A stretch of DNA of 64,000 nt from Steroidobacteraceae bacterium (GTDB lineage Bacteria > Pseudomonadota > Gammaproteobacteria > Steroidobacterales > Steroidobacteraceae), in NCBI GenBank assembly GCA_050012215.1, contig JBEKHO010000017.1, forward strand, positions 13,888 through 77,887, given 5' to 3'. The first letter of the stretch is position 1. Every line of letters starts with the position of its first letter. The notes under the pieces were generated by a model. It was not told where the DNA came from. It did no database searches and was given only the letters and a program-made list of their open reading frames with translations. Of this stretch, positions 4,079 to 32,216 are shown one piece after another. Position numbers and translations under genes: made by a program.

Positions 4079-4260
4079 GGGGCATCCCCTAGCGCGAATG
4101 TGATTTTGAAGATGATCGATGATAGCCCATCCCGCCATGCTTGCCGCAAGCGCCGGCGCGCCGCCCGACTTAACTTATCGTGTCAGGGGTCTTTCTAATT
4201 GCTCCGCAACAGGCGTACCCTTGAAATTATTGTCAAGCACCCGATCGCAGGAGGTGTCCC

Positions 4261-4527: not shown

Positions 4528-4544
4528 GCCGAACGCCCGCGCTG

Positions 4545-6689: not shown

Positions 6690-6711
6690 GTCGAGACTCC
6701 CGTGTGCATTC

Positions 6712-8010: not shown

Positions 8011-8117
8011 GATGCTCCCTCGTCCGACGACCGTCGCGCATGATACGCCCACTCCCCCCTTGATATCGACGGCGCTTCGCCTCAGGCTTCCTCTGAGCGG
8101 CATACGGGAGTTTCAGC

Positions 8118-16810: not shown

Positions 16811-18574
16811 TCAATAAGCAAGCGCGATTCCGTCCGCGCGCATTTCGCTCGCGGCCGCGTAAACGCGCGCAGAACCCTCGCTCCGATGTTCGATGCACTG
16901 GTATCTGCCGAATCCGCCGTCGGATGCACCGATCGGCCAGCCGCGCTCCGTCAGCCGGCGGCGCGTCTGCTCCGGCACCCCGGACTCCAATCGCAGGACG
17001 CCGCAGGCCCCAAGGCCGGGCTCATCCTCTCCCATGGTTTGAGGCGACCCTTGGTGGTGCCAACGCGGAGCGTCGCCCGCGGCCTGAATATCCAGGCCGT
17101 AGTCGACCCGGTTCACGATGATCTGCGTCTGTCCCTGGGGCTGCATGTCCGCTCCCATGACGCCGAAGGACATCCAAGGACGCGCACCCACTGCCGCAAA
17201 TCCTGGAATGATGGTCTGGAATGGCCGTTTGCCCGGCCGGTATGCGTTCGGGTGACCATCGATGAGCGAGAAAAGCTGACCGCGGCTTTGAAACATGAAG
17301 CCCAAGCCGTCGGCCACCAACCCCGAGCCGAGCCCGCGATAATTGGATTGGATCATCGACACCATCAGGCCGCCTGAGTCGGCGACCGTCAGATAAGTGG
17401 TATCGCCGCGGCTCGGGGCCTCGGCAGGCGCACCGGTGCGCACCCGATCCGGCCGGATGAGCTTCGCGCGCTCGGACGCGTATTCTTTCGAATTCAGCCG
17501 CTCGATCGGAACGCTCGAGAAATCGGGATCCGCGTAGTGACGGGCGCGGTCCTCGTAGGCCAATCGCTTGGCCTCCGCTTGCGTGTGGATCGATTCCGCC
17601 GATTGAAAGCCCATCCCGCGCAAATCGAAATTCTCGAGAATGTTGAGCATCTGCAGGGTCGCCAGGCCCTGCGTGTTGGCGCCCATCGCATAGACATCGA
17701 CACCTCGGTAAGAGCTCACCAGCGGCTCGACCCATTCGCTCCTGTGCGCCTTCAAGTCTTGGAACGACAGCCAACCGCCGATGCGCTTGAAATAAGCGTC
17801 GATGGCGAGCGCGATGGGGCCTTCATAGAAGGCCTCGCGGCCGCCTTCGGCGATCATGCGATAGGTGTGCGCCAGATCGGGGTTGCGGAACAACTCTCCC
17901 TCGCGCGGCGCGTGTCCTTGCGGAGCATACGTGCGCATGGCATTCGCCCACTCCTCCACGCCGGAACTCGCCTCACGGAACACCTCAAGATCCCGCTTCC
18001 AGTGAAAACCGATGACCTGCGGCACCGGTACCCCGCGCTCGCACAGGTCGATGGCCGGCGCGAGAATCTCGGACCATTTCAGCCGGCCGAACCGCTGATG
18101 CATGGTCCACCACGCATCCAGCGCGCCGGGCGTGGATACGGCGATTGCACCGTAGGGCGCGATCAGCCCGTGCGGCGAGCGACTGCGAACCATGTCGAGG
18201 CTCAATGATGTCGGAGAGCGGCCGGATCCGGCGAGACCTGCGAGTTTCGATATCTTCGGATCCCAGATCAACGCATAGCAGTCGCCGCCGATTCCGGATC
18301 CCGTGGGCTCCAAGAATCCGAGACATGCGGCGGCGGCCACTGCGGCGTCGGCGGCGCTGCCGCCACGCTTCAAGATCTCGATCGCGGTCAACGTCGCGTA
18401 GGGATGTGCCGTGCCCGCGGCGCCCGAGCATCCATAGACGGCGGACCTCGACGCGAAACTCGCGCCGGCAGGACGATCGCCCGCGCGCACATCGTAGCGC
18501 TCGTATCGCTGCGCTTCCGCGGACCATTGATCACTGAGGTTTTCCCTGCACGTTATGTTCATTTTACAGTCCAC
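16811..18574 (-). CDS. ggt: gamma-glutamyltransferase family protein (no signal peptide)
   Basis: 587 aa. Family motifs GGSAADAAVA, GIGGDCYAL and the autoprocessing/nucleophile site GDTTYLTVAD. The N-terminus has no hydrophobic leader. Confidence 0.8.
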   Translation of the reverse strand: MDCKMNITCRENLSDQWSAEAQRYERYDVRAGDRPAGASFASRSAVYGCSGAAGTAHPYATLTAIEILKRGGSAADAAVAAAACLGFLEPTGSGIGGDCYALIWDPKISKLAGLAGSGRSPTSLSLDMVRSRSPHGLIAPYGAIAVSTPGALDAWWTMHQRFGRLKWSEILAPAIDLCERGVPVPQVIGFHWKRDLEVFREASSGVEEWANAMRTYAPQGHAPREGELFRNPDLAHTYRMIAEGGREAFYEGPIALAIDAYFKRIGGWLSFQDLKAHRSEWVEPLVSSYRGVDVYAMGANTQGLATLQMLNILENFDLRGMGFQSAESIHTQAEAKRLAYEDRARHYADPDFSSVPIERLNSKEYASERAKLIRPDRVRTGAPAEAPSRGDTTYLTVADSGGLMVSMIQSNYRGLGSGLVADGLGFMFQSRGQLFSLIDGHPNAYRPGKRPFQTIIPGFAAVGARPWMSFGVMGADMQPQGQTQIIVNRVDYGLDIQAAGDAPRWHHQGSPQTMGEDEPGLGACGVLRLESGVPEQTRRRLTERGWPIGASDGGFGRYQCIEHRSEGSARVYAAASEMRADGIALAY

Positions 18575-18744: not shown

Positions 18745-18772
18745 CTCCTGATTGTCGCCGGTGGTAATAGAG

Positions 18773-21064
18773 ATGCAAGTTAGTCATCGATCACTTCTCT
18801 TGAGTCTCGCTACGCTCCTGGCGGTATCGGGCTGCGACATCAGTTCACCCTGGGGCAGCAGCAGCAGCGGCACAGCGTACGGTGCCGCGAGCCTCGCAGG
18901 CAATACCGGCGGCACCGGAGGTACCGGCGGCAGCGGTACCGCCACGAGCCCCAAGGGCGGCGTCGGCGGAGAAAGTGGCACCACGGGCACCGACGATACC
19001 GTCATCGCCACTGCTTCGAACTCCAATGTATCGGTCGCCGTGGGCTCGAACCAGACGATCGGCATCACATTCGCCTCGAGCGACGGGCGATCGATCACCG
19101 GATTCGGCATTTCTGGAAGCTTGAGCACGCTACCCGCCGGTTGGAGCGGTCCGCTGGCGTTCACCTGCAAGCTGGTCATGGCCGGCAGCGCGTGCGTGCT
19201 CAACTTGACCTACGCGCCCACGGCCTCCGACTCGGGCTCACTGGTCGTCAACTACGTCTATGTCGACAACGCGAACCTGTCGAAGGCACCCGGGGGTTCG
19301 GTCACGATCTCGTACCAGGCCATTGCCCAGAACAACGTCGTGGCGACCGCCATGCCCAGCGGTCAAATCAATGCACTCTTGGGCGCTGGCACACAATCGG
19401 TGAGCGTGAACTTCACCTCCGACACCAGCAACGCCACGATGGATGCGGCCATCACCAATTTCACGGTGAGCACCGATCTTTCCGCGCTGCCGGCCGGCTG
19501 GTCGAGCACATCGCCGTCCTTCTCCTGCGCCATCGTCACCACCGGCAACGGTTGCCAGCTCATGCTGAGCTATCAACCGGCCGCATCCGCGAGTGGAGTG
19601 CTCACGCTGAACTATGCGTACACGGACGATTCGGGCGCCTCCCGCGTCGGCAGCCTCAACATCCCGTACGCTACGACCTCTTCGAACAACGTCGTAGCGA
19701 CCTCATCGCCCGCCGGGCAGATCAACGCCGTCGAAAAAACCGGCAGCCAGGCCGTCGCCATCGATTTCAACACCGACGACGGACGGGCTGCGAGCGGGCT
19801 CATCGTCACCTCGAATCTGGCCGCGCTGCCGGCGGGCTGGCACAGCGGATCCAACAGCTTTTCCTGCGGCAGCGTGAGCACCGGCAACGGCTGCCATCTC
19901 GGACTCACCTACGCCCCCACGGCGCTCGGCTCAGGGACGCTCACACTCGCTTACGCCTACAATGACGATGCGGGGAATCAACAGACCGGCACCTTGAACG
20001 TTCCCTATGCCGCGACCACCAACGACAACGTGGTCGCGACGCCCTCGCCCGCCGGCCAAATCAACGCCGTGGTCGGACAGGGCTCGCAGAACGTCGCGGT
20101 GGTATTTACGACGGACGACACGCGCCTCGCCACCGCGCTGCAGGTCACCAGCGATTTGACGACACTGCCGGCCGGCTGGTCGAGCGCATCACCCAGCTTC
20201 GCTTGCACCACGGTGAGTACCGGCAGCACGTGCCAGCTCAACCTGTCGTACACGCCGACCGCGTACACGACGCCCGGTACACTGATGGTCGGATACAGCT
20301 ACAAGAACAACGCCAACCAGACAAAGACTGGGACGTTGAGCATCCCCTACCGTGCAATGACCAACGACACCATCGCTGCAAGCCCCAGCCAACCCTCGCT
20401 TGCGGTGATCATCGGCTCGCCCACCGCACCGACGCCGGTGACCATCACTTTCGCCACCGACGACGCCAATCCGGCCATCGGCGTGCCGGTCACCTCGAAC
20501 GCCCTCACCATCACTTCGGGACTCAACCCGCTGCCGCCCGGCTGGAGCGCGACCTCGACCACGTTCAGCTGTCTGACCGTGAGCGATGGGACGGTCTGTC
20601 AGCTGCCGCTGATCTATGCGCCCAGCGCAGTCACGAACGGCGCGCAAACGCTCGCGCTCGGCTACAGCTACGTGAACGACGCGGGATTGGCCAACACGGG
20701 CACCGCCACCGTCAGCTATCGCGCCATGTCGAACAATACGGTCGTTGCGGGAGTCAATCCCGGCTCGCCGCTCAATGTCGCAAGCGGCAGCGTCAACACC
20801 GTCACGGTGAGCTTCACGACGAGCGACGGCAATCCTGCCACGGGACTGTCGGTATCGGGGCTGTCGCTGCCGGCCGGCTGGAGCGGACCAAGCACCTTCA
20901 CCTGTCCCTCGGTCACCGGCAGCGCAGCGAGCTGCCAGCTCACGCTCACTTATGCACCGACCGTTCCGAGTGGCAGCGCCAACCTGGCGCTTGGATTCAG
21001 CTATACCAACAATGCCGGAAACTCAGGATCCGGTGCGGTGACCATCCAGTACAGCGCGAGTTGA
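18773..21064 (+). CDS. lipoprotein composed of six tandem two-cysteine Ig-like (choice-of-anchor-D / HYDIN-like) repeats
   Basis: ATG at 18773 gives MQVSHRSLLLSLATLLAVSGC (lipobox). A Gly/Thr-rich linker follows, then six repeats. Each repeat has NNVVAT-x-P-x-GQINA, LPAGWS, F-[ST]-C ... G-x-[GAST]-C-x-L-x-L-[ST]-Y-x-P. Confidence 0.8.
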   Translation: MQVSHRSLLLSLATLLAVSGCDISSPWGSSSSGTAYGAASLAGNTGGTGGTGGSGTATSPKGGVGGESGTTGTDDTVIATASNSNVSVAVGSNQTIGITFASSDGRSITGFGISGSLSTLPAGWSGPLAFTCKLVMAGSACVLNLTYAPTASDSGSLVVNYVYVDNANLSKAPGGSVTISYQAIAQNNVVATAMPSGQINALLGAGTQSVSVNFTSDTSNATMDAAITNFTVSTDLSALPAGWSSTSPSFSCAIVTTGNGCQLMLSYQPAASASGVLTLNYAYTDDSGASRVGSLNIPYATTSSNNVVATSSPAGQINAVEKTGSQAVAIDFNTDDGRAASGLIVTSNLAALPAGWHSGSNSFSCGSVSTGNGCHLGLTYAPTALGSGTLTLAYAYNDDAGNQQTGTLNVPYAATTNDNVVATPSPAGQINAVVGQGSQNVAVVFTTDDTRLATALQVTSDLTTLPAGWSSASPSFACTTVSTGSTCQLNLSYTPTAYTTPGTLMVGYSYKNNANQTKTGTLSIPYRAMTNDTIAASPSQPSLAVIIGSPTAPTPVTITFATDDANPAIGVPVTSNALTITSGLNPLPPGWSATSTTFSCLTVSDGTVCQLPLIYAPSAVTNGAQTLALGYSYVNDAGLANTGTATVSYRAMSNNTVVAGVNPGSPLNVASGSVNTVTVSFTTSDGNPATGLSVSGLSLPAGWSGPSTFTCPSVTGSAASCQLTLTYAPTVPSGSANLALGFSYTNNAGNSGSGAVTIQYSAS
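18995..21061 (+). repeat. six tandem coding repeats of about 330-370 nt
   Basis: The LP[AP]GW codons recur at 19130, 19487, 19826, 20165, 20531 and 20867. Nucleotide identity is partly retained (e.g. ctgccggccggctggtcgagc at 19487 and 20165). Confidence 0.85.
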
Positions 21065-21094: not shown

Positions 21095-23419
21095 TCAATG
21101 CGGCGCGGGGGCCGGCTTTGCCGCCGCAGCGTGCTCGTGCGGCGCCGCTTCCGTACTGACCGGAATCTCGATATAGCTGTCGTTGTACCAGCGCACCTTG
21201 ATTGGCGTGTTGCCGTCGTCGATCGACTCCTCGCTCACGTCGTTGCCGGTGCCGTAGTTGATCTCCCGATCCGGGCGCTTGCTCACGCGCAGCACGATCA
21301 CCAGACGGCTGCCTGCCTCGAGCCGGCGGCTGGTCATGCGCTCGCCGACGAATGCCAATTTCTGCCGCTCCCCCGCTCTCAGCAGATGGCGGTGCACACG
21401 GTCGGCCGCATAACTCAAACGCAGCTCATCCGCCGGATTGAACAAGCGCACATAATCACCGGCCGCCGTCAACGCATAGGCGGCAATATCGATGTCCATA
21501 TCCATCTTGTTCACTGAAAAATCCAACCGCCCCGACAGCAGGCCATTGAAGTCCGTCGGGGTCTTGAACGAGTTGCTCACGAACGTCACGGAGTTGTGCG
21601 TGACGAGATTTCGTGTGATGAGGTCGCTCGGCGGCAGCCATGCTGCATCGCTGCGGTCCGTGAGGCTCACGGTCTGAGCGACCGCGGCGGCCTTCGCGCT
21701 CTTGCGCCTGATGAGCCGGCGTCCTTCGGCCGCGCCGGCCGCACCGGCGCTCAAATAGAATTTGAGCGATGCGTCGGCCATGGCCCGCAGCGACGACACA
21801 TGGCGCCACTCATTTGCGCCCATGATCTCGAAATTGACCCGGTCTTGGAGTTCGGCCGGGACCGCGCCGCCCTTCATTGCATGGTCGAGCCACTGATATC
21901 GCAGCTCGCGCAAATCGAGAAGCGCAGCCGCGTCCACGTCGTAGCCGCGCACCGAGGCGGACGCCCCGCGCTGCATGGCTTGATCGTCGTACGGTCCGAT
22001 GAGCAAGGTATGGTCCGCACGAGGGTTGTAGCGATGATGCTCCGTGAAATAGTAGAGCGCGGCGGGCTCTGCGGCGGCGAAATAACCGGTCATCGTGAGC
22101 ACGGGAAAGTCGACGCGGGCGAATTGACGCTGATACGGGATCATGCTCTGCCAAAACCGGTCGTAGCTCGGATGGTTCAACCAGCGGATGAAGATCGGGT
22201 TGGGCCGGCCATGGATCGTCCCCAGATCCCGATAGCGCCGTCCGCTTCGATACCATTTCTCGTCGAGCGCGCGCCAAACGGCATCGTCGCCGAAACTTGG
22301 ATCGACCTCCTCCCGGGTGTGGGTGACTTCCAGAGACCAGCGGTACCCCGAATTCTGAAAGACGCTGCCGGACATCGGCATATCGATGCCGGGCGCGGTC
22401 GGATCCGAGACTGCGATGGCCTTGAGCGCGGGCGGCATGCGCCCCGCCGCCGCCCAGGCCGTGAATCCGCTGTACCCCTCGCCGTACATCGCCACCCGCC
22501 CGTCGCTCCAGCCCTGCTTGGCGATCCAGTCGATGAGTGCCCGCGCCACCTCACCGTCGTGCTGATACGGAACGAAAGCGGCGGTTCCTGCCGCTGCGCG
22601 GCGCATGTCCGCGAACACGCCCACGTAGCCATGCGCTGCGCTCTCCTTGGCGGACACCGTAGGTCGATCGATGCCGAGCTCGAGCAGCGCGGGAAGCGCG
22701 GTGGAGGCGCCCTGCGGGCGAATCACGGTTGCGGCGATGCTGCCGCGCCCGGGCACCTTGATGCTGACCTCGCCCTCCGCATAGCGTTTCGCCTCATCCA
22801 CCGAGTTGAGCGGTCCCGCCAAAGGGGCCGATCCGCGGTAGGCCTCGAAGTACGCGTAGGCGGACAGCAGCGTCTCGGCCTCCTGCTGATTGATGATGTC
22901 CTTGGAGCGTTGCTCGTCGAGCAACCGCTGGAAATTCTCCTGAAACTCCTGGGCAGGAGCGGCGAGCCAGCCCGAGAGCATGAAGGCATCATGATCGTTG
23001 AGCTTGGAAAATACCTCTTGATACGCCATGTCGAACGCCTCGGAGAACGGCACGCGCCGTTGCGCCTCGATGGCCTTGGTGCGGACATAGATATCCAGCA
23101 CCCTGCCGCGCCCGACCGGGCGGCCCGAATCCGCGCGCCGGCGGCGCTCGTGCAGGGATTCCCGCGACTCGATCGCAGCGGAATAGTCGGCCGCCGCCAA
23201 TTGCAGCACCGATAGGTTCGCGAGATATCGATCTGGATCGGAGTCCTGATAAACGGGCAGCAGCCGCTCTGCCAGATCGCGCATGACCGCCGGCGTCTTT
23301 GCATCGACGGCCGAGAGCGGGGCGTGGAAGTCGAAGCTCTGAGCACCGCTCAACCGCGGCAACGCGACTGCGAACGCCGACACCAACACGAGACCCGCGA
23401 GGCGGCGGCCGAGCATCAT
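21095..23419 (-). CDS. secreted CocE/NonD (S15 X-Pro dipeptidyl-peptidase) fold protein with substituted catalytic triad and ~210-aa N-terminal helical extension
   Basis: Signal peptide MMLGRRLAGLVLVSAFAVALPRLSGAQS. It aligns by eye with Rhodococcus CocE around GYVGVFADMR...VAMYGEGYSGFTAWAAA...LKAIAV, TMTGYFAAA, LLIGPYDDQ and a C-terminal jelly-roll (FEIMGANEWRH). Confidence 0.8.
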   Translation of the reverse strand: MMLGRRLAGLVLVSAFAVALPRLSGAQSFDFHAPLSAVDAKTPAVMRDLAERLLPVYQDSDPDRYLANLSVLQLAAADYSAAIESRESLHERRRRADSGRPVGRGRVLDIYVRTKAIEAQRRVPFSEAFDMAYQEVFSKLNDHDAFMLSGWLAAPAQEFQENFQRLLDEQRSKDIINQQEAETLLSAYAYFEAYRGSAPLAGPLNSVDEAKRYAEGEVSIKVPGRGSIAATVIRPQGASTALPALLELGIDRPTVSAKESAAHGYVGVFADMRRAAAGTAAFVPYQHDGEVARALIDWIAKQGWSDGRVAMYGEGYSGFTAWAAAGRMPPALKAIAVSDPTAPGIDMPMSGSVFQNSGYRWSLEVTHTREEVDPSFGDDAVWRALDEKWYRSGRRYRDLGTIHGRPNPIFIRWLNHPSYDRFWQSMIPYQRQFARVDFPVLTMTGYFAAAEPAALYYFTEHHRYNPRADHTLLIGPYDDQAMQRGASASVRGYDVDAAALLDLRELRYQWLDHAMKGGAVPAELQDRVNFEIMGANEWRHVSSLRAMADASLKFYLSAGAAGAAEGRRLIRRKSAKAAAVAQTVSLTDRSDAAWLPPSDLITRNLVTHNSVTFVSNSFKTPTDFNGLLSGRLDFSVNKMDMDIDIAAYALTAAGDYVRLFNPADELRLSYAADRVHRHLLRAGERQKLAFVGERMTSRRLEAGSRLVIVLRVSKRPDREINYGTGNDVSEESIDDGNTPIKVRWYNDSYIEIPVSTEAAPHEHAAAAKPAPAPH

Positions 23420-25278
23420 CGGCGTCCCCGCGGCGTGCGCTTCCCGCCGGCGCCGGGCTGGGACGAAGCGGCTGGAACCGCCGGCGCGCGCGCCATCGCG
23501 TCGGGCCGCCCGGACTTGACGAGGTGAAGGACCGTCGAGAACAACGGGTGCGCCTCGCCCGGGCCGCCGATGTGAATGACACCCGTGTCCTTCAATTCCC
23601 CGTCGAACACGCTCGAGATGATCTCGAGCACGTCATCGTCGAGCGACCCGAACGTGCCGTCGATCAGCACCCAGGGCGGCGACTGAATCAGGATGCGCGC
23701 GAACACCAGGCACAGCTGCTCGTCCTGACTCAGCACCCGATCCCACCGATGGGTCTCATCGAGCATCAGCGCCAACCGCTCCACGCCCAGCCGGTAGAGC
23801 GCCCGCGTGTAGGAGTTGCCGCTGAAGCTCTCCGGCTTCAATGGATAGGCGAGCACCTCGCGCAGCGTGCCGCGCGGAAGATACGGCGTGCCGCGCGGCA
23901 GGTAAAAGATCTGTTCCCCGCGCGGGCGCGTGATTTCTCCGGAGCCCCACGGCCAAAGCCCCGCGAGCGCCCGGAACAACTGCGTCTTGCCGGTTCCCGG
24001 TGCGCCCAGAATGAGCACGCGTGCGCCCGCACCGATCACCGCTTGCGTCTCCTTGAGCCGGTCGGCATTGGCCTCCGAAACGATTTCCAGATTGGAGATC
24101 GCGATGACCCCGGGCTCGCCTTCCGTATAGGTGATCCGGCTTTCGAAACCTTGCGGCTCGTGCAGCGACACGAGCGCATGACGGAAGGTTGCGACGCGGA
24201 ACAACGTGGCGCGCCAATCGGCGATCGAGCTGAAGTTGTCGATGAACCAGCGGAGCGAGGACTGCGCCTGCGTGAACGCGCCGGCCGCCATCATCAAACC
24301 GCCGAACGAAATCTTGCCCATGAAGTACAGCGGCGCCGCCACCAGGATCGGAGCGACGTTCGTGATCCAGCCGAAGCCGGCGGTCACCCAGGTGAGATGG
24401 GTATGACCCCAGATGATGCGGCGGGTGGCGGCGAGCACGTCGCCCAGGTTGCGCTCCATGCGGCGCTTTTCATCCCCTTCGCCCTGTGCCAGCGCGATGG
24501 CATCCACGTGCTCGTTTGCCCGGACCAGCGAGAAGCGAAAATCCGCCTCACGCGCGTACCGCTCGGCGTTGCGATTCACCAGCCCCCGGCCCACCCAGTA
24601 GCTCATCAACGAACCGGCGCTCGCATAGATGATGGCTGCCCAGACCATGAAGCCGGGAATGGCGTAATCCTGATCTCCAATGCGGAAGCTGAATGCGCTC
24701 GACAGCCCCCACAGGACGCCTGCAAACGTGCCGAACAGGATCGACGACTGAAGCAGCCCGATTCCCAGATCGGCGGACAGCTGCGTGAGATGGCGCGCAT
24801 CTTCGTGCATCCGCTGGTCCGGGTTGACACCGATCGCTCCGGCGTTCGCCAGCCAGAATGCGCGCCGCGGCTTCATCCAATCGTCGATCAGACTGTGCAC
24901 CAATCCTTCGCGGAGCTTCAACTCGAGGGTCTCGTTGAGCCAACGCTGCACGACATTCAAGATCAGCAGGCAGCAGGCGATCAGAAAAAAAACACCGAGC
25001 TGGTAGAGAAACTCGCGCAAATCGCGTCGTGATAGAGCGTCGAAGAAGGGCTTGTTCCAGCGATTGAGGCGGATTTGGCCGTACGATGTGGCAGCCACGA
25101 TGAGCACGGTCACGATCATCAGCACCATGAGCGGCTTGCCGGCGCGTGAGGCAAAGATCGCGCGCGTCAGCATGCGGACCTGGGCCGTGAGGCCGGTCGG
25201 CGCCGTGTCGGCCTCCGAATCGGAGCGGGGGACGTTGGAAGAGCGATCAGTCACGGTGCCGGGCGCCTCGCCACACAT
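23416..25278 (-). CDS. ABC half-transporter of the SbmA/BacA/ABCD (ABC_membrane_2) type with degenerate nucleotide-binding domain
   Basis: 620 aa. The TMD begins ...LNRWNKPFFDALSRRDLREF, as in YddA/ABCD-type proteins. Walker A is GAPGTGKT. Q-loop, signature, Walker B and H-loop positions deviate (see findings). ATGA overlap with the downstream CocE-like gene. Confidence 0.8.
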   Translation of the reverse strand: MCGEAPGTVTDRSSNVPRSDSEADTAPTGLTAQVRMLTRAIFASRAGKPLMVLMIVTVLIVAATSYGQIRLNRWNKPFFDALSRRDLREFLYQLGVFFLIACCLLILNVVQRWLNETLELKLREGLVHSLIDDWMKPRRAFWLANAGAIGVNPDQRMHEDARHLTQLSADLGIGLLQSSILFGTFAGVLWGLSSAFSFRIGDQDYAIPGFMVWAAIIYASAGSLMSYWVGRGLVNRNAERYAREADFRFSLVRANEHVDAIALAQGEGDEKRRMERNLGDVLAATRRIIWGHTHLTWVTAGFGWITNVAPILVAAPLYFMGKISFGGLMMAAGAFTQAQSSLRWFIDNFSSIADWRATLFRVATFRHALVSLHEPQGFESRITYTEGEPGVIAISNLEIVSEANADRLKETQAVIGAGARVLILGAPGTGKTQLFRALAGLWPWGSGEITRPRGEQIFYLPRGTPYLPRGTLREVLAYPLKPESFSGNSYTRALYRLGVERLALMLDETHRWDRVLSQDEQLCLVFARILIQSPPWVLIDGTFGSLDDDVLEIISSVFDGELKDTGVIHIGGPGEAHPLFSTVLHLVKSGRPDAMARAPAVPAASSQPGAGGKRTPRGRR

Positions 25279-25300: not shown

Positions 25301-28288
25301 TCAGTACGCGATGCAGAGAACCTCGGCGGGAGTCGAAGGCACGGCCACCGAGTCGCCGTCGATCCGCGCCGGCGCTCCGCCGACTCTCGCCTCGCGCAGC
25401 GCAGCTGCGAGCGGTGGCTTCACGATGATCCGGCAGTCCACGCCGGAGGCAATATCGAAGCGCACCGTGCGAGCGTCGATCCGCCGCACGGTATAGCTGA
25501 GCGCGCCATAAAGTGTCGGCATCGCACGCACATGCACGCCGTCGCCCTCGATCCATTCCGGTGCCACTCCCGCCGCCAATACCAGCGCGCGGTCGGCTTC
25601 CCGCTCGTAAGCGAACAGGCTCCGAATCGCGAGAACGTACTCGGCAGAAATCCAGGTGTGCGGGAGATCGCCGACGTGCGCGGGCGCCTTGCGATCGCGC
25701 CACGCGATTTCCGGCCATTGATTCCAGGCCCGCGGACGCCTGTCGGCCAGGAAGAAGCGCAACAATTCGAGCGCCGCGCTGCGGTGCCCGAGCCGGACCA
25801 GCGCTCCGATGATGCGGATCTCGTAGGGAGTGTAGTTGGGCGAGGTTGCGTCATCGGAGCGCTTGGAGCGCCAATCCGCAAGATACTTGTCGAAGGTACG
25901 CTCGACGGCCGCTCGATCGAGACCTTGCGGTACATCCAACAGGTAAATTGCATTCGCGGTGGCCGTGGGATCGAAATCCGCCCACTCGACGCTACCGGGA
26001 ACAAAGTCGAGGTTGTGGGCCGCGCGGGTCGCCGCGACCGAGGCGAACAATCCCGTCCCCACCCGCTCGGCGAGCATCTGCGAGCGCCGCGCGAGATCAT
26101 CGGCGCGCCGGGCGTCCACACGTCCGCCATCCGCCGCGAGAATTCGAGCGAGGTCTGCCGCGTCGGTGAGGCCGCGAAGCGCCCAAAAGTCGTCCCAGTA
26201 CGAATGAACCGGCTGCGCGAGATAGCCTTCGTGGCTCACGGAAATCGGCAGCAGCCCGTCGCCTTCCAAGAGGCCGTCAATGCACTGCACCGCCTTCTGG
26301 ATGAAAGGCCACGCCTCGTCGAGAAACTGCCGATCACCGGTGAACCGGTAATAATCGGCGATCAATGCGAGAAGCTGACCGTGGCTGTCGTGCTCCACCA
26401 GCCAATCGGGGCCCTCCCGGTCCACGCAGCACGGTACGAAGCCATCGTCGCGCTGATGCGGCGCGTACCAGCGGATGAACTCGAGCACCTCGCGTGCATG
26501 TCCCATTCGAAGCAGCGCCGCGCTCATCATGGCCCCATCTCGAATCCACGAGCGCGTATATCGCCTCGGACCCGGCTGCAGCGCGGGCCCCGATCGGGTG
26601 ATCAAGATATGCGCCGTCGCAGTGAGCGCCGCGTCGATGGCCTCGCCCGCCCAACCGCTCCCCGACCACTGATCCGTGCGCATCCGCGACTTCCAGTCGA
26701 ATGCCGGCAGGCCCGCCGGGCTGGCCTGTGCGGCGGGCCGCGAGCGCAGGGTCCGATCGCAGGAGGCGCCCGGCTGCAATGCGAGGTCGAATTCGAATGC
26801 GCCCGTCGCAAAGCCGAAGTCGTCGCGTATCGACCCGGCCGTCGGCAGTGCGCCGACGCGAAGCCTCGAGGCGACGAATCCGTCGTCGAACGACAGTGCG
26901 CCGAAGCGGACGCTCCCATCGGCCCTCACGGCGAGGCTTCTGTTCACCCGCAGCACCCCCTCTTGCCATTCAAGATCGTGAACGCGGCTGACCCCGCCCA
27001 CATCGCGAAAACTTTGCCAGGGAGGCGTGACCTGGAACGGACGCACAATGACGTACAGGGCTGCCTCCAACGGCGCCCCGGTTCTGTTGTCGACGCGATA
27101 GCGCACCCGCACCTCGCCATCCTCGGCGGCTTGCGCGATCACGGTGAGGCGCCATTGTTCGGTCTCCCACAGCACCGCGGGGACGGGCACCCAGCGATCC
27201 TCGAGCGCGGGGCACGGCTCGAAATCCGCCCAGGTGAAAAGCCTCGGACCGATTCGCAACATGGGCTCGAGCGAGAACGACGCTTCGGCCACTTCCACCA
27301 TGCCATCGCTGTTCATCAGCGCGCACTCGGTTCCGTTCGATCGGCCGATCGGCGTCCATTCGCTTTGCTCGCGATGCAACCAGCGCGGATGCCAACCTCG
27401 CTCCTCGCCTTTCGCGACCGCATACCAAAACGCCTCGATGGAGCGCGAGAACTCGAACGGTTGAACGCGCAGTGTCGCACCTGCGCAAGGACTCGACAGC
27501 TCCAGGCGCAGGAATCGCGTCTTGAGGTCCGGTAGATATACGTAGCTGCGCGCACCTCCCGCCTGCGCGGCGACGTGCACGACTTCCCACCGCTTGCTGG
27601 TGTTCGATGCGCAAATTCGGAATCCCGTGGACGGCGCGCCGTCAGGCCAGTCGATGATGAGGCCGCCGATCCGGCGCGGCAGCGCGCAATCGACCACGAT
27701 CCAAGGCCGCCGATCGCCGGGATCGGGTTTCCAGCCCTGCCCGGTAAGCGCCGCATCGGCCCCAAATCCGGGCCGCTCGCTGGAAGCGCTCGCCGTCGGC
27801 GCCCGGTCCGGTGTCAAATCCTCGATCTCGAGATCCGCGATCCAGAGCGAGCCGCGGCCACCCTCACCGGCCACGATGGCGATTTCGACGAATCCCAGTT
27901 CCGTGAGCGCACTGCCGCTCGCGGGACCCCAGGCAAACTCGATCTCGCGGCTCTCGATGGTCCACCGTCGCCAGCGTGCGGGTGGACTCTGGTTTTTGGC
28001 GACGTGACGCCAAACGTTGCGGCCCGTGGCGTCGAGCAGCTTTATCTCGAGATCATTGGGCGGCCCGTGTCCGCGCACGCGCAGGTGCACGGCGTACTCG
28101 TTCGGCATGGGGCGGGGGCAGCTGCGCCTCGCGACCGCAAACCCCTTGCCGCCCTTGAAATCGAAATTGAGACGTAGCGCCGAGGTCTTTCCGGAGGGAA
28201 CGACGGACACCTCGAGGGTGGCGTTGCCGGACACGGTCGGCTGCCACGCCGACAACGGAATCGGGTCGCGCGCGCGCGCCGGCGACAT
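25301..28288 (-). CDS. large leaderless protein: N-terminal beta-sandwich + F5/8 type C (discoidin) domain + (alpha/alpha)6 glycoside-hydrolase-like (GH15-like) region
   Basis: 995 aa. Discoidin-like segment PWIVVDCALPRRIGGLIIDW...KTRFLRLEL. Later RYTRSWIRDGAMMSAALLRMG and SYWDDFWALRG resemble six-hairpin glycosidases. No signal peptide. The start overlaps the GGDEF stop by 1 nt (TGATG). Confidence 0.6.
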   Translation of the reverse strand: MSPARARDPIPLSAWQPTVSGNATLEVSVVPSGKTSALRLNFDFKGGKGFAVARRSCPRPMPNEYAVHLRVRGHGPPNDLEIKLLDATGRNVWRHVAKNQSPPARWRRWTIESREIEFAWGPASGSALTELGFVEIAIVAGEGGRGSLWIADLEIEDLTPDRAPTASASSERPGFGADAALTGQGWKPDPGDRRPWIVVDCALPRRIGGLIIDWPDGAPSTGFRICASNTSKRWEVVHVAAQAGGARSYVYLPDLKTRFLRLELSSPCAGATLRVQPFEFSRSIEAFWYAVAKGEERGWHPRWLHREQSEWTPIGRSNGTECALMNSDGMVEVAEASFSLEPMLRIGPRLFTWADFEPCPALEDRWVPVPAVLWETEQWRLTVIAQAAEDGEVRVRYRVDNRTGAPLEAALYVIVRPFQVTPPWQSFRDVGGVSRVHDLEWQEGVLRVNRSLAVRADGSVRFGALSFDDGFVASRLRVGALPTAGSIRDDFGFATGAFEFDLALQPGASCDRTLRSRPAAQASPAGLPAFDWKSRMRTDQWSGSGWAGEAIDAALTATAHILITRSGPALQPGPRRYTRSWIRDGAMMSAALLRMGHAREVLEFIRWYAPHQRDDGFVPCCVDREGPDWLVEHDSHGQLLALIADYYRFTGDRQFLDEAWPFIQKAVQCIDGLLEGDGLLPISVSHEGYLAQPVHSYWDDFWALRGLTDAADLARILAADGGRVDARRADDLARRSQMLAERVGTGLFASVAATRAAHNLDFVPGSVEWADFDPTATANAIYLLDVPQGLDRAAVERTFDKYLADWRSKRSDDATSPNYTPYEIRIIGALVRLGHRSAALELLRFFLADRRPRAWNQWPEIAWRDRKAPAHVGDLPHTWISAEYVLAIRSLFAYEREADRALVLAAGVAPEWIEGDGVHVRAMPTLYGALSYTVRRIDARTVRFDIASGVDCRIIVKPPLAAALREARVGGAPARIDGDSVAVPSTPAEVLCIAY

Positions 28289-30237
28289 CAGGCGGCGGCG
28301 CCCATGTCCACCAGCCGGACCCGCTCGTCGGCCGCGGCGGACTCGAACTCCTCGCAGATCACGGTCAAATCATCCTTGTCCTGCGCGACCACCGCACTGA
28401 TCAAGCAGGCGCGATTCCGGCCGCGGCGCTTCGCCTCGTAAAGCGCCTTGTCGGTGAGGCTGATCGCGCTGTCGAGCGAGATCTCCGTATCCGCCCCCGG
28501 CATCGGAAAGCACGCGTAGCCGATCGAAATCGTGCACCGGATGGCCTGGCCGTTCCAGAGCACCGGATCGCGGCGCACCGCCTGAAGGAGCCTCTCGACC
28601 GTCCGGTCCGCCTGTTCGGGCGTGATCGGATCGAGCACGGCCAGGAATTCCTCACCGCCCCAGCGCACCAGCTTATCGGTCTCGCGCAACGCCGCGGACA
28701 GACGGTGGCTCACGGTGGCGAGCACGGCGTCTCCGGCCGGATGTCCCAACGTATCGTTGATCCGCTTGAAATGGTCCAGATCCGCGAGCAGCACGCAACC
28801 TCCGACCGGCCGGCCGCCGTCGACGCTCAGTACGTGCTCGTTAAAATAACGGCGATTGCGCAGGCCCGTCAATGCATCGCGTTCGCTGTTGAAGCGCAGA
28901 CGATCGTTCGCGCGCCGCACGCGTGCGAACGCCCAGGCGAGCGCCGCACAGATGAAGGTCACGAAGCCCGCCGCTGCCATGATCAGTTGTTGTTTCAGCC
29001 GTTGGCCACGCATTTCCGAGGCTTTGAGTGCGTTGTCCCGCCGCAGCAGCTCGAGCTCGCGGGCGCGCCTCTCGTCGTCGAACTTGGCCGAGAGCTCGAG
29101 GAATGCGCGTTGGCGCGTGCCGGTCATGATTTTCTCGCCCACTGCATCGTATTGATGATAGGCCTGAATCGCCATCATCAGATAGCCTGCGTGTTCGAGC
29201 GCGTCGGCGTACTCGCGCAGATCCTCCTTGGCGTCGAGGAGATTGTCGCCCTTGACCGCGTTGTCTATCGAGGCTTCGGCGAGCTTCTCACCCTCCTTGA
29301 TGTTGCCGAGACCGATGTATGCCAATCCCTCGTTGAACAGCACGATGCTCTCGTCGCCGCTGCCGCGCATCTGGGACACCAATGGCAGCGACTGTTTCGA
29401 GTACTTGAGAGACTCGGCGTAGTCGCGCGTCTTGAGATAGGAATCGCCGAGATTCAGGTAGGCATGTGCGAGCCACTTGGTGCTGTCCGAGCGCGTGGCA
29501 TGCTCGAGCGCCGCAAGACTGGCGCGCCGCTCCGCCGGCCGGTCACCCTGACGGTCCGCGATGTCCGATGCGCGCACTTCCACCTCGGTCAGCGCCGCCT
29601 CATCGCCGATCGCGGACGCCAGGCGTCGCGCGCTCTCGAGCTGGTCGGACGCGCGATCGTAGTTGCCGGTATCTGTGTAGATGAGCGTGAGCCAGAGCAT
29701 CGCATGGATGCTGCGCTGATCGTCGTGCATGTCGCGGGCCAGGTCCAGGGACTCTTCGAGAAACGGCAGTGCCGCCTCAGCCTGTCCCAGGGTCCGCAAG
29801 GTATTGCCCCGAAGTATCGACACACGATAGCGCTCCGCGTCGGAGTCGATGGCCGTCATGTCGATCTGGTTGAGTTCCTCGCGAGCCGCCGCGGATTGCG
29901 CGTGCTCGTAGTGGGAATAGGCGCGCACGTAATGCTCGGCCAGAACGGCCGACTGATCCCCGTCCTCCGCGATCGCCTTCAACCGTGCAATCGTCGCATC
30001 GACATCCGCATCACGGCGGGTGTCGGCGTAGACCATCGCGCGGACCTCCAGGAACTGCACTTCGGAGGCGCGCCCTTTCGCGAGGGACGGCGAGTCGATG
30101 ATTTTCTCCGCGCGCGCGGGATCCGACCAATCGAGCATCTCGATTCGATCAGAAAAGGACAGATCTGCCGCCCCCACAGTCGTGGTGGCAGTCCATGCCA
30201 ACAGCCCCATCAAGGCCCATTTTCTAGAAAGGCGCAT
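28288..30237 (-). CDS. diguanylate cyclase with periplasmic TPR sensor region (signal peptide, TM, GGDEF)
   Basis: ATG at 30237 lies 5 nt after an AGGTGG RBS (a GTG at 30246 is also possible). TPR-like repeats, a coiled coil, one TM (LIMAAAGFVTFICAALAWAF), an active-site RWGGEEF and an I-site RETD five residues upstream. Confidence 0.85.
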   Translation of the reverse strand: MRLSRKWALMGLLAWTATTTVGAADLSFSDRIEMLDWSDPARAEKIIDSPSLAKGRASEVQFLEVRAMVYADTRRDADVDATIARLKAIAEDGDQSAVLAEHYVRAYSHYEHAQSAAAREELNQIDMTAIDSDAERYRVSILRGNTLRTLGQAEAALPFLEESLDLARDMHDDQRSIHAMLWLTLIYTDTGNYDRASDQLESARRLASAIGDEAALTEVEVRASDIADRQGDRPAERRASLAALEHATRSDSTKWLAHAYLNLGDSYLKTRDYAESLKYSKQSLPLVSQMRGSGDESIVLFNEGLAYIGLGNIKEGEKLAEASIDNAVKGDNLLDAKEDLREYADALEHAGYLMMAIQAYHQYDAVGEKIMTGTRQRAFLELSAKFDDERRARELELLRRDNALKASEMRGQRLKQQLIMAAAGFVTFICAALAWAFARVRRANDRLRFNSERDALTGLRNRRYFNEHVLSVDGGRPVGGCVLLADLDHFKRINDTLGHPAGDAVLATVSHRLSAALRETDKLVRWGGEEFLAVLDPITPEQADRTVERLLQAVRRDPVLWNGQAIRCTISIGYACFPMPGADTEISLDSAISLTDKALYEAKRRGRNRACLISAVVAQDKDDLTVICEEFESAAADERVRLVDMGAAA

Positions 30238-30352
30238 ACCCGCCACCTAGCACTGCATCGCAGCATCCTCGTATAGCCAATCTGATCATGGGGTTGTCTC
30301 AGGTGGCGTGACGGAGGTCATCTCGTGAGCTTTTGTTGGCCGAATTTGCAAG

Positions 30353-32215: not shown

Positions 32216-32216
32216 C

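What the first reader, a model, noticed from the sequence alone, without database searches (positions are those of the whole stretch)
21983..22483. CocE/NonD-fold protein with all three catalytic-triad positions substituted (Ser to Gly, Asp to Ala, His to Asp)
Aligned by eye to Rhodococcus cocaine esterase CocE (triad Ser117/Asp259/His287, from memory). CocE GVSYLGVTQW corresponds here to GEGYSGFTAW (codons at 22466-22483), so the nucleophile position is Gly. CocE ITAGWYDGF corresponds to TMTGYFAAA, so the Asp position is Ala (22076-22078). CocE VVGPWSHSN corresponds to LIGPYDDQA, so the His position is Asp (21983-21985). Flanking conservation is strong (GY.V...D.R, FVP, W.DG.V.M.G, LKAIA, the jelly-roll domain), so the alignment is unlikely to be shifted. 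This predicts a secreted pseudo-hydrolase, or an enzyme with a relocated active site (a Ser sits two residues after the lost nucleophile). It also carries a ~210-aa N-terminal helical extension absent from CocE.
Basis: partly seen in the sequence, partly recalled or inferred. Interest (0 to 1): 0.6.

Follow-up and report, generated by a model that had tools for sequence, protein, structure and literature searches.

The report
Dead esterase-fold partner of a transporter
This gene encodes a periplasmic protein with the fold of cocaine esterase that has lost every catalytic residue yet is strongly conserved. It is always encoded directly after, and in one lineage fused to, one type of inner-membrane transporter, so it most likely became that transporter's non-enzymatic outer subunit.

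Summary
ORF 21095-23419 (-), 774 aa, matches CocE/NonD / Peptidase_S15 (Pfam 9.6e-27, TIGR00976 3.8e-38, Foldseek TM 0.72 to CocE). HMMER and family alignments place Gly315, Ala448 and Asp479 at CocE Ser117, Asp259 and His287.

The loss is clade-wide. In 111 orthologs there is never a Ser or a His at these positions. In 107 more distant relatives with the same N-terminal helical domain, Ser and His are invariant (107/107). The oxyanion Tyr and an RGK..S motif are also lost.

The gene is not decaying. dN/dS is 0.17-0.22 in all three domains, and transcript fragments occur in four peat or wetland metatranscriptomes.

The new result is the link to a transporter. In 23 of 23 testable triad-less loci, a YddA/Rv1819c (SbmA/BacA)-type ABC gene lies directly upstream. 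In 0 of 60 triad-intact loci does it do so. Here the two genes overlap by ATGA. Two diverged sequences (67.5% identical) carry an in-frame ABC-pseudoCocE fusion.

The ABC's ATPase motifs are themselves degenerate. Leaderless GH15-like, GH144 and GH3 genes accompany the pair.

Best reading: a non-catalytic periplasmic partner of this transporter, possibly for glycan import. I found no report of this in the literature.

The parts
21095..23419 (-). Gene for the 774-aa triad-less CocE/NonD-fold protein (P0001)
   Evidence: ORF list and translation. Pfam PF02129 9.6e-27. TIGR00976 3.8e-38. AF2 model pLDDT 79 / pTM 0.80, best Foldseek hits are CocE.
23342..23419 (-). Signal peptide, residues 1-26 (MMLGRRLAGLVLVSAFAVALPRLSGA | QS). 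Judged by eye, Sec type.
   Evidence: Sequence. The N-terminal hydrophobic segment is present in orthologs. In the fused forms the same segment links the cytoplasmic NBD to the CocE-like part.
22778..23338 (-). N-terminal all-helical domain, residues 28-214 (8 helices), with no solved structural relative. It carries most of the clade-specific conserved residues (D48, R52, P55, V56, R86, D109).
   Evidence: AF2 of the domain alone: pLDDT 94.8, pTM 0.90. Foldseek against PDB: best E 0.29, TM <= 0.31. Clade-specific conservation and gain of constraint.
21860..22777 (-). Alpha/beta-hydrolase (Peptidase_S15) domain with cap, residues about 215-520. Its catalytic loops have relaxed.
   Evidence: Pfam match to residues 228-475. 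Relative loss of constraint at 269-290, 313-323, 434-455 and 478-488.
21155..21859 (-). C-terminal jelly-roll (PepX_C-like) domain, residues about 521-755
   Evidence: PF08530 is weak (E 0.0063, below cut-off). The region aligns with CocE to residue ~555-580 and is beta-rich in the model. dN/dS 0.11-0.22.
22475..22477 (-). Gly315 at the nucleophile position (CocE Ser117)
22076..22078 (-). Ala448 at the acid position (CocE Asp259)
21983..21985 (-). Asp479 at the His position (CocE His287)
22667..22669 (-). Asp251 at a position that is Tyr in 107/107 triad-intact relatives (presumed oxyanion-hole Tyr, CocE Tyr44 from memory)
   Evidence: Column counts, coordinates
22586..22603 (-). Degenerate R-G-K..S motif: residues 273-278 read RRAAAG, where triad-intact relatives have R-G-K-x-(gap)-S
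   Evidence: Column counts
23416..23419 (-). ATGA stop/start overlap between the ABC gene and this gene
   Evidence: Sequence. The same tight junction occurs in L001, L003 and L004.
23416..25278 (-). Partner gene: 620-aa YddA/Rv1819c (SbmA/BacA)-type TMD-NBD half-transporter with degenerate Q-loop, signature and Walker B
   Evidence: PF06472 2.7e-35, PF05992 9.8e-23, PF00005 only 2.5e-07. Best PDB match is 6TQE, an ABC transporter ATP-binding protein/permease that I take from memory to be Rv1819c, 4.4e-53. Motifs across 22 orthologs.
25301..28288 (-). Upstream operon gene: 995-aa leaderless protein with an F5/8 type C domain and a distant GH15-like (alpha/alpha)6 region
   Evidence: PF00754 5.2e-10. 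TIGR01577 8e-10. Conserved upstream of the pair in 9 loci.
28288..30246 (-). First operon gene: TPR-GGDEF diguanylate cyclase
   Evidence: PF00990 2.5e-37. Conserved in L001, L004, L006, L007 and L035.

Best explanation
The gene encodes a Sec-exported, catalytically dead member of the CocE/NonD (MEROPS S15) fold. It works as a non-enzymatic periplasmic partner of the YddA/Rv1819c-type (SbmA/BacA-like) inner-membrane transporter encoded immediately upstream.

Shown here:
- The Ser-Asp-His triad, the family-invariant Tyr and the RGK..S loop are all replaced.
- The loss defines one clade, within which His is never present and Ser survives in only a few basal members.
- The protein is under purifying selection in all three domains.
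- Relative constraint has moved from the catalytic loops to the N-terminal helical domain.
- Throughout this clade, and only there, the gene follows the ABC gene with a stop/start overlap.
- In one sub-lineage the two are a single polypeptide, with the former signal peptide as the linker.

Inferred: the two proteins form a complex at the periplasmic face of the membrane. The hydrolase-derived cleft and/or jelly-roll domain captures or presents cargo, or alternatively gates or stabilises the transporter. The N-terminal helical domain is the docking surface.

More speculative: the cargo is a large hydrophilic glycan such as beta-1,2-glucan oligosaccharides. It would be degraded in the cytoplasm by the leaderless GH15-like, GH144 and GH3 enzymes encoded beside the pair. 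Because the transporter's ATPase motifs are degenerate, it may not be driven by normal ATP hydrolysis.
For: Loss of catalysis:
- triad columns are S/D/H = 107/95/107 of 107 in intact relatives; the dead clade has 0 His and 2/53 Ser. Tyr251, G274, K275, S278 and G314 are also released.

Still functional:
- 111 full-length orthologs of 59-88% identity.
- dN/dS 0.17-0.22 overall and 0.11-0.31 per domain.
- Metatranscriptome contigs with zero mismatches lie in this gene and in the ABC gene, in 4 runs.

One event:
- The bipartition intact | lost has 100 SH-aLRT support on a tree built with the triad columns masked.

Coupling to the transporter:
- The ABC gene lies directly upstream on the same strand in 23/23 testable triad-less loci and in 0/60 triad-intact loci.
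- ATGA overlap here.
- Identities of the two proteins to the window's copies co-vary, r = 0.96 over 19 loci.
- In-frame fusions occur in L051 (1335 aa) and P0130 (1369 aa), which are 67.5% identical to each other over 1340 aa.
- The pair persists in three different upstream contexts.

Shift of constraint:
- Gain at residues 38-92, loss at 269-290, 313-323, 434-455 and 478-488.
- Clade-specific conserved residues lie mostly in the N-terminal domain, and no new conserved Ser, Cys or His appears.

Glycan context:
- In 7 group-B loci the operon reads GH144 homolog (5GZH endo-beta-1,2-glucanase, 7e-137), GH15 (1e-34), ABC, pseudo-CocE, with a divergent GH3. The GH144-type and GH3 proteins have no signal peptide.
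- In the window, a GH15-like 995-aa leaderless protein lies upstream.
- The genome's second copy of this ABC sits beside a GH3 gene.

Transporter family:
- It imports large hydrophilic cargo without a known binding protein (PMC10960864, PMC13316013).
Against: - No biochemical data exist. Absence of hydrolase activity and a physical complex are both inferred.
- The link between triad loss and the ABC gene is one evolutionary event, not many independent ones, so the 23/0 versus 0/60 count overstates the statistical support.
- I could not inspect the coordinates of the model, so I do not know whether a binding cleft persists.
- The most conserved loops (348-357, 396-419, 670-680, 716-731) are modelled with pLDDT < 50.
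- The fold is not that of any known ABC substrate-binding protein. Type IV ABC importers studied so far need none.
- The glycosidase neighbours differ between sub-groups and are absent in group C (a BatD/VWA context). The 995-aa protein shows no direct sequence similarity to the group-B enzymes.
- A second copy of the ABC in this genome has no CocE-like partner, so the transporter type can work alone.
Confidence: 0.6

Rival explanations
1. It is still an enzyme. It would use a non-canonical or relocated catalytic centre, for example the acidic residues E314, D478 and D479, Ser317, or a bound metal. It would process the cargo in the periplasm before the ABC transporter imports it, much as the protease FusC is thought to act ahead of the ABC transporter FusD.
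For: Strong purifying selection acts on the alpha/beta domain (dN/dS 0.15-0.20). Ser317 is 44/53 and Asp478 is 42/53 in the clade, and E/D at 314 is common. Some proteins classed as pseudoenzymes from sequence have migrated catalytic residues (abstract of PMC10211241, listed). In the Fus system a periplasmic peptidase is encoded with an ABC transporter and no binding protein (PMC6042079).
Against: None of the candidate residues is invariant: position 314 is E19/D12/S8/T3/N3, position 317 has Gly or Ala in 9/53, and position 479 is D/E/S/A/R. No new conserved Ser, Cys or His appears in the clade. Relative constraint falls at all four catalytic loops. The presumed oxyanion Tyr and the RGK..S loop are lost too.
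Confidence: 0.17
2. It is a non-catalytic periplasmic binding or scaffolding protein that is merely co-regulated with the transporter. For example, it could bind a glucan or cell-envelope component without touching the ABC protein.
For: It is exported, dead and conserved. The C-terminal jelly-roll is a fold class often used for carbohydrate binding (general knowledge). A convergent Ig-repeat lipoprotein gene is conserved next to it in 4 loci.
Against: The stop/start overlap is conserved and the adjacency holds in three different gene contexts. Two diverged in-frame fusions tie it physically to the transporter. Divergence of the two proteins is tightly matched (r = 0.96).
Confidence: 0.15
3. 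It is a decaying relic (pseudogene in the making) of an S15 hydrolase, with no function.
For: Many catalytic positions are lost at once. The genome has three canonical S15 paralogs that could cover the enzymatic role.
Against: Full-length open frames occur in more than 100 orthologs down to 41% identity. dN/dS is 0.17-0.22. It is transcribed in situ. Many invariant non-catalytic residues remain.
Confidence: 0.02
4. The triad loss is an alignment artefact and a Ser, Asp and His are in fact in canonical geometry.
For: Identity to CocE is only about 21-26%, and several loops of the model have low confidence.
Against: Three independent alignments agree. The flanking motifs M-x-G-x-[Nu]-Y-x-G-F, T-G-Y-[FY]-[acid] and G-P-[YW]-x-[His] are conserved. 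In 107 relatives they hold S, D and H in exactly these columns. No His lies within the GPYDDQAMQ loop.
Confidence: 0.02

Closest known systems
Rhodococcus cocaine esterase CocE (PDB 1JU3, 3I2J) and the CocE/NonD family (Pfam PF02129 Peptidase_S15, TIGR00976, MEROPS S15), including alpha-amino acid ester hydrolases (1MPX, 2B9V)
   Same: Homologous alpha/beta-hydrolase domain, helical cap and C-terminal jelly-roll. phmmer E 3.5e-20. Foldseek E 3e-30, TM 0.72 on the target. The nucleophile-elbow scaffold G-x-x-Y-x-G, the HP.YD..W motif and GP[YW] are kept.
   Different: No Ser, Asp or His, no family-invariant Tyr (presumed oxyanion-hole), no RGK..S loop. It has a signal peptide and a ~190-aa N-terminal helical domain. 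It is encoded with, or fused to, a membrane transporter. It is probably not an enzyme.
Triad-intact ~750-aa relatives with the same N-terminal helical domain (Bacteroidota, Lysobacteraceae, Acidobacteriota and others; e.g. L019-L085, P0159, P0166), all uncharacterised
   Same: Same three-domain architecture and signal peptide, 25-43% identity.
   Different: They keep S/D/H (107/107 Ser and His) and the Tyr. They are never next to the YddA-type ABC gene (0/60 loci).
DPP6 (DPPX) and DPP10, catalytically dead dipeptidyl-peptidase-like proteins that are auxiliary subunits of Kv4 potassium channels
   Same: A peptidase of the alpha/beta-hydrolase fold lost its nucleophile Ser (Gly in DPP10, Asp in DPP6). 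It survives as an extracytoplasmic accessory subunit of a membrane transport protein, anchored by one N-terminal helix. This matches the fused forms here.
   Different: Different peptidase family (S9B, not S15), eukaryotic, and the partner is an ion channel rather than an ABC-type transporter. There is no homology of the partnership. This is an analogy of mechanism only.
Rv1819c / mycobacterial BacA (PDB 6TQE/6TQF), E. coli YddA, Bradyrhizobium BclA, SbmA/BacA (SLiPT)
   Same: The partner gene belongs to this family: 4.4e-53 to 6TQE, which I take from memory to be Rv1819c; PF06472 and PF05992. Members import large hydrophilic cargo such as cobalamin, bleomycin and peptides (PMC10960864). YddA proteins are of unknown function (PMC13316013).
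   Different: I found no periplasmic partner described for any of them. Here the NBD keeps Walker A but has LPRGTPY for the Q-loop, LSQDEQ for LSGGQ and LIDG for the Walker B plus catalytic Glu.
Pectobacterium Fus ferredoxin-uptake operon (FusC M16 protease plus FusD ABC transporter)
   Same: [quoted passage not shown]
   Different: FusC is an active metalloprotease of another fold. A TonB-dependent receptor is part of that operon. I did not test whether FusD is of the YddA type.
Classical ABC substrate-binding proteins (clusters A-G, Venus-flytrap fold)
   Same: Periplasmic, encoded in the transporter operon, and in some systems fused to the transporter.
   Different: Unrelated fold. Those proteins serve type I/II importers, whereas this partner is a type IV (exporter-fold) transporter.

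Membership tests
CocE/NonD family (Pfam PF02129 Peptidase_S15; NCBIfam TIGR00976) | Profile match above the curated cut-off | tested here: met
   PF02129 scores 94.7 bits against a cut-off of 23. TIGR00976 scores 131.8 bits against a cut-off of 66.3.
CocE/NonD family (Pfam PF02129 Peptidase_S15; NCBIfam TIGR00976) | Three-dimensional fold: alpha/beta-hydrolase core plus cap plus C-terminal jelly-roll | tested here: met
   AF2 model pTM 0.80. The top 29 Foldseek hits are all S15-type structures, with CocE TM 0.69-0.73 over about 600 columns. PF08530 itself is below cut-off (16.9 vs 22.5 bits).
CocE/NonD family as serine hydrolases (MEROPS S15 peptidases and esterases) | Catalytic triad Ser-Asp-His at the nucleophile elbow, after strand beta7 and in the His loop | tested here: not met
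   Gly315, Ala448 and Asp479. The same is true across 111 orthologs.
CocE/NonD family as serine hydrolases (MEROPS S15 peptidases and esterases) | Oxyanion-hole Tyr (CocE Tyr44) and conserved RG(K)..S loop | tested here: not met
   The column is Tyr in 107/107 intact relatives and Asp251 here. R-G-K..S reads R-R-A..G here. Equating this column with CocE Tyr44 rests on my memory of the CocE N-terminus.
CocE/NonD family as serine hydrolases (MEROPS S15 peptidases and esterases) | Hydrolytic activity sensitive to serine-directed inhibitors | not testable with these tools
   Needs purified protein.
Pseudoenzyme (inactive enzyme homolog retained by selection) | Clear homology to an enzyme family, with catalytic residues missing | tested here: met
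Pseudoenzyme (inactive enzyme homolog retained by selection) | Retained under purifying selection and expressed | tested here: met
   dN/dS 0.17-0.22. Orthologs extend down to 41% identity. Exact-match metatranscriptome contigs exist, though DNA carry-over in those libraries cannot be excluded.
Accessory or binding subunit of an ABC-type transporter | Conserved operon linkage with the transporter gene | tested here: met
   23/23 testable loci, with stop/start overlap.
Accessory or binding subunit of an ABC-type transporter | Gene fusion with the transporter in some genomes (Rosetta stone) | tested here: met
   L051 and P0130 are fused in frame and are 67.5% identical to each other.
Accessory or binding subunit of an ABC-type transporter | Known substrate-binding-protein fold | tested here: not met
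   The fold is CocE-like. The N-terminal domain has no PDB match.
Accessory or binding subunit of an ABC-type transporter | Physical complex and ligand binding | not testable with these tools
   Needs pull-down, cryo-EM or ITC. No multimer prediction was available.

The most novel reading that the evidence does not exclude
The pair may be a previously unrecognised two-component uptake machine. One part is a YddA/Rv1819c-type transporter whose ATPase has decayed, a possible living intermediate between ABC transporters and proton-driven SbmA-like carriers. The other part is a dead S15 hydrolase recruited as its periplasmic receptor. Together they would import very large hydrophilic glycans such as linear or cyclic beta-1,2-glucans for cytoplasmic degradation. 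That would be the first substrate-receptor subunit known for a type IV (exporter-fold) ABC importer. It would also be a bacterial counterpart of the DPP6/DPP10-channel partnership.
Probability: 0.25. Interest if true: 0.8.

Novelty: new variant of a known kind. Interest (0 to 1): 0.62.

Why it matters
Dead alpha/beta-hydrolases that work as binding or auxiliary proteins are known in animals, for example neuroligins and DPP6/DPP10. I found no bacterial example from the CocE/NonD family, and no periplasmic partner for any SbmA/BacA/YddA/Rv1819c-type transporter (6 full-text searches).

- The YddA family is widespread and still of unknown function (PMC13316013).
- This clade offers a genetically defined partner, natural fusion proteins suited to structural work, and a candidate substrate class from the neighbouring GH144, GH15 and GH3 genes.
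- It is also a clean natural case of how an enzyme becomes a non-enzyme: His is lost in the whole clade, Ser and Asp are then relaxed, and constraint moves to another domain.
- Annotation pipelines currently name all these proteins 'CocE/NonD family hydrolase', which is probably wrong as a statement of function.

Tried and rejected
1. Relocated nucleophile. I looked for polar residues conserved in the dead clade but not in intact relatives. There is no new conserved Ser, Cys or His. Ser317 and E/D314 are not invariant.
2. Homology between the window's 995-aa upstream protein and the group-B GH144 and GH15 enzymes. BLASTP and phmmer found nothing significant. Only a shared distant match to TIGR01577 links the 995-aa protein to GH15. 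Its PDB sequence search gave only E 0.02.
3. What the N-terminal helical domain resembles. The domain-only AF2 model is excellent, but Foldseek against PDB gave no hit better than E 0.29, with weak TPR/BamD-like rows.
4. Co-transcription across the ABC/CocE junction. Metatranscriptome contigs hit both genes but none spans 23416-23419.
5. Literature. There was no paper on inactive CocE/NonD proteins or on partners of YddA/BacA-type transporters. One search failed on syntax.
6. Whether Gly after the Walker B Asp is natural in Rv1819c. The PDB chain also reads DG, but I suspect an engineered mutant, and the paper I opened did not mention it. I therefore judged degeneracy against the general ABC consensus only.
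7. One locus (L072) scored as 'lost' in the fast alignment. The better alignment shows GPWSHG, so this is an artefact.
Full report
**What is there**

The finding lies in ORF 21095..23419 on the minus strand, which is 774 aa. The protein matches Pfam Peptidase_S15 (PF02129, E 9.6e-27, residues 228-475). It weakly matches PepX_C. It matches NCBIfam TIGR00976 CocE_NonD (3.8e-38, residues 257-748). Its best solved relatives by sequence are the Rhodococcus cocaine esterase entries (E about 3.5e-20). Alpha-amino acid ester hydrolases come far behind. An AlphaFold2 model built on 111 orthologs has mean pLDDT 79 and pTM 0.80. Its top Foldseek matches in the PDB are all CocE (E 3e-30, TM 0.72 normalised to CocE), followed by other S15-type structures. 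The N-terminus MMLGRRLAGLVLVSAFAVALPRLSGA|QS reads as a Sec signal peptide. I judged this by eye; no predictor was available.

**Check of the observation**

HMMER's pairwise alignment to CocE pairs these residues with Ser117, Asp259 and His287, with high posterior probability. I rebuilt CocE residues 61-580 from that output and aligned it with the family. The three CocE residues fall in the same three columns.

The strongest control is internal. Among 107 more distant relatives (24-43% identity) these columns hold Ser 107/107, Asp 95/107 and His 107/107. They are therefore the triad columns, and the alignment is not shifted.

In the 111 close orthologs (59-88% identity), position 315 is Gly 95 / Ala 16. 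Position 448 is A/S/D/T/G/C. Position 479 is D90/E12/G6/N2/T1. There is never Ser or His.

Other active-site positions are gone as well. A Tyr invariant in intact relatives (107/107) is Asp251 here; I take it to be the oxyanion-hole Tyr, CocE Tyr44, from memory. The R-G-K..S loop (102, 107, 95 and 96 of 107) reads R-R-A..G. The Gly before the nucleophile (105/107) is Glu314.

**A clade, not an accident**

An exhaustive HMMER search of 1.84 billion representative proteins found 4650 relatives at E <= 0.001. Representatives above about 41% identity lack the His and nearly all lack the Ser. Those below about 40% keep S/D/H.

I built a tree of 69 proteins from named genomes with the triad columns masked. 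It separates intact from lost by a branch with 100% SH-aLRT support. The one exception (L072) is an alignment artefact. Since CocE and all other S15 groups have the triad, the simplest reading is a single loss.

Within the dead clade the His is never present, while Ser survives in a few basal members (P0124, L015). This suggests that the His went first and the rest then relaxed. The order is inference.

The clade occurs in Steroidobacteraceae and other Gammaproteobacteria, and in Burkholderiales MAGs.

**It is kept by selection and expressed**

Nei-Gojobori dN/dS against five orthologs is 0.17-0.22 overall. Per domain it is 0.13-0.31 (N-terminal), 0.15-0.20 (alpha/beta) and 0.11-0.22 (jelly-roll).

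The sequence occurs in more than 20 peat and soil metagenome runs. Contigs from four peat or wetland metatranscriptomes match this gene and the upstream ABC gene with zero mismatches. None spans the junction, and DNA carry-over cannot be excluded.

The genome (5.6 Mb, 98.6% complete) also has three canonical S15 paralogs with much higher Pfam scores.

**Where the constraint went**

I z-scored per-column conservation within each clade and compared the two. The dead clade shows relative loss at 269-290, 313-323, 434-455 and 478-488, which are the four catalytic loops. It shows relative gain across the N-terminal helical domain, strongest at residues 38-92 (MRDLAERLLPVYQ.SDPDRYLANLS).

Residues conserved at >= 88% in the dead clade but not in intact relatives lie mostly in that domain (F31, P34, D48, R52, P55, V56, R86, D109), plus P662 and R715. 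No new conserved Ser, Cys or His appears. This argues against a relocated catalytic centre, though it cannot exclude one.

**The N-terminal domain**

Modelled alone on 66 sequences, the domain is a confident eight-helix structure (pLDDT 94.8, pTM 0.90). It has no significant structural match in the PDB: best E 0.29, TM <= 0.31, with a few weak TPR/BamD-like rows. It is absent from CocE but present in the triad-intact ~750-aa relatives. It therefore predates the loss of catalysis.

**The transporter link**

The stop codon of the upstream gene (23416..25278, minus strand) overlaps this gene's start as ATGA. That gene encodes a 620-aa TMD-NBD half-transporter. It matches ABC_membrane_2 (2.7e-35) and SbmA_BacA (9.8e-23), but ABC_tran only at 2.5e-07. 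Its best solved relative is PDB 6TQE at 4.4e-53, followed by ABCD transporters. I take 6TQE to be M. tuberculosis Rv1819c from memory.

I fetched 80 loci from named genomes plus 5 from metagenomes and searched them with the window's proteins.
- Every triad-less locus with upstream sequence available has this ABC gene directly upstream on the same strand. That is 23 of 23 loci (21 distinct proteins), with 59-91% identity to the window's ABC.
- None of the 60 triad-intact loci has it within 10 kb.

Because this is one evolutionary transition, the count is not 83 independent trials. Three further observations show that the linkage is maintained.
- It persists across three different upstream contexts.
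- The divergence of the two proteins is tightly correlated (r = 0.96 over 19 loci).
- In L051 (1335 aa) and in representative P0130 (1369 aa) the two genes form one open reading frame. These two sequences are only 67.5% identical to each other over 1340 residues, so the fusion is an inherited feature and not an assembly error.

In the fusions the NBD is followed by the former signal-peptide segment (PIALLLLVALAWPALSRAAAG) and then the CocE-like part. This gives the topology expected if the CocE-like domain sits in the periplasm beside the transporter. That topology is inference.

**The transporter is odd too**

Across 22 orthologs the NBD keeps Walker A (GAPGTGKT). The Q-loop position reads LPRGTPY, the signature reads LSQDEQ in place of LSGGQ, and Walker B plus the catalytic Glu reads LIDG, or DD/ED in some. 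These motif identities rest on the general ABC consensus. A 56%-identical paralog elsewhere in the genome is even more degenerate (GESGRGRT, LSDSDR, LIIIEA). It lies beside a GH3 gene and has no CocE-like partner.

SbmA is thought to have arisen from a YddA-like ABC transporter by loss of the NBD, and YddA proteins have no known function (PMC13316013). Mycobacterial BacA (Rv1819c) moves cobalamin and other large hydrophilic compounds (PMC10960864). I found no accessory protein mentioned for these transporters in the two papers I searched.

**Neighbours and possible cargo**

In the window the operon reads TPR-GGDEF cyclase (28288-30246), then a leaderless 995-aa protein, then the ABC, then the dead CocE. 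The 995-aa protein (25301-28288) has an F5/8 type C domain and a distant GH15-like region (TIGR01577 8e-10). This arrangement recurs in 9 loci.

In a second group of 7 loci the genes before the ABC are different.
- One is a homolog of the GH144 endo-beta-1,2-glucanase (PDB 5GZH, 7e-137).
- One is a GH15 glucoamylase-like protein (1e-34).
- A divergent GH3 beta-glucosidase lies alongside.
The GH144-type and GH3 proteins lack signal peptides.

A third group of 4 loci has an unrelated BatD/VWA context.

The recurring cytoplasmic glycosidases suggest that the pair imports a glycan, with beta-1,2-glucan as the most concrete candidate. This is inference and does not cover every sub-group.

**How it most likely works**

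Shown:
- The protein is exported and dead as a serine hydrolase by every sequence criterion.
- It is selected and expressed.
- It is genetically welded to the transporter.

Inferred (about 0.6): it is a non-catalytic periplasmic subunit of the transporter. The N-terminal helical domain is the likely docking surface. The former substrate cleft and/or jelly-roll is a cargo-binding or gating element.

Less likely: it is an enzyme with an unconventional centre that processes the cargo (about 0.17), or a binding protein that is only co-regulated with the transporter (about 0.15). Decay and alignment error are effectively excluded.

**Comparison with what is known**

By homology it belongs to the CocE/NonD fold family. 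By the defining catalytic features it is not an S15 hydrolase. The current database name 'CocE/NonD family hydrolase' is therefore a fold label, not a function.

By mechanism the nearest analogues are DPP6 and DPP10. These are dead dipeptidyl-peptidase-like auxiliary subunits of Kv4 channels (my own knowledge, not checked here). A looser analogue is the Fus system, where a periplasmic peptidase-fold protein replaces a binding protein beside an ABC transporter (PMC6042079).

**Earlier notes of this scan**

First-reader notes on this genome describe the four-gene operon and the degenerate ATPase. Follow-up notes on two other genomes reach the same partner reading and a glucan-locus reading. I recorded my partner reading in the same request that opened the first set of notes. 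I found the GH144, GH15 and GH3 genes independently of the glucan note. The notes are AI leads and not independent evidence. Only the pointer to FusD came from them.

**Verdict**

The added value is the obligate, sometimes fused, partnership with a YddA/Rv1819c-type transporter, which I did not find described in the literature. I rate it a new variant of a known kind, a pseudoenzyme recruited as an accessory subunit of a membrane transporter. Interest is 0.62.

Noticed in passing
window 23416-25278 (-): The partner ABC half-transporter keeps Walker A (GAPGTGKT) but has LPRGTPY at the Q-loop, LSQDEQ for the LSGGQ signature and LIDG for Walker B plus the catalytic Glu. The pattern is conserved in 22 orthologs. 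This suggests ATP binding without normal hydrolysis, or a shift to another energy source.
   Followed up: partly
own genome contig C35:18783-20627 (L098 8783-10627, -): A second copy of this ABC type (56% identical) has an even more degenerate NBD (GESGRGRT, LSDSDR, LIIIEA). It is divergent from a GH3 beta-glucosidase gene, has no CocE-like gene after it, and a PrkA/DUF444/SpoVR operon follows.
   Followed up: partly
window 25301-28288 (-): A 995-aa protein without a signal peptide combines an F5/8 type C (discoidin) domain with a distant GH15-like (alpha/alpha)6 region (TIGR01577 8e-10; GDE_C and GH95 hits at E about 0.005). Its closest PDB sequence hit is only E 0.02. In L003 its ortholog is split into several short ORFs, which may reflect frameshifts or assembly errors.
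   Followed up: partly
window 18752-21064 (+): A 770-aa probable lipoprotein made of repeated Ig-like modules (weak NPCBM_assoc, HYDIN and ASH hits) is convergent with the dead CocE gene. It is conserved in that position in L001, L004, L006 and L035, followed by a gamma-glutamyltranspeptidase gene (16811-18574) and, in those loci, a PTR2/MFS peptide transporter.
   Followed up: no
window 30353-35054 (-): A cyanophycin synthetase (945 aa, with Cyanophycin_syn, ATP-grasp and Mur ligase domains) is followed by a 645-aa paralog with only the Mur-ligase M and C domains. The same pair lies upstream of the operon in L004 and L006.
   Followed up: no
L011, L014, L015, L017, L018, L022, L084 (about 3000-8200 in each locus): A leaderless homolog of the GH144 endo-beta-1,2-glucanase (5GZH, 7e-137) and a GH15 glucoamylase-like gene lie directly before the ABC/dead-CocE pair, with a divergent leaderless GH3. 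This looks like a cytoplasmic beta-1,2-glucan degradation module that depends on import.
   Followed up: partly
window 22778-23338 (-), residues 28-214: The eight-helix N-terminal domain is predicted with very high confidence (pLDDT 94.8) yet has no structural match in the PDB (best Foldseek E 0.29). It is shared by hundreds of triad-intact S15 relatives, so it is an uncharacterised domain in its own right.
   Followed up: yes
P0001 residues 348-357, 396-419, 670-680, 716-731: Several of the most conserved segments of the whole family (e.g. RWLNHPSYD, YA.DR.HRHLL, KRPDREINYGTG.DVS) are modelled with pLDDT below 50. They may need a ligand, metal or partner to order.
   Followed up: no
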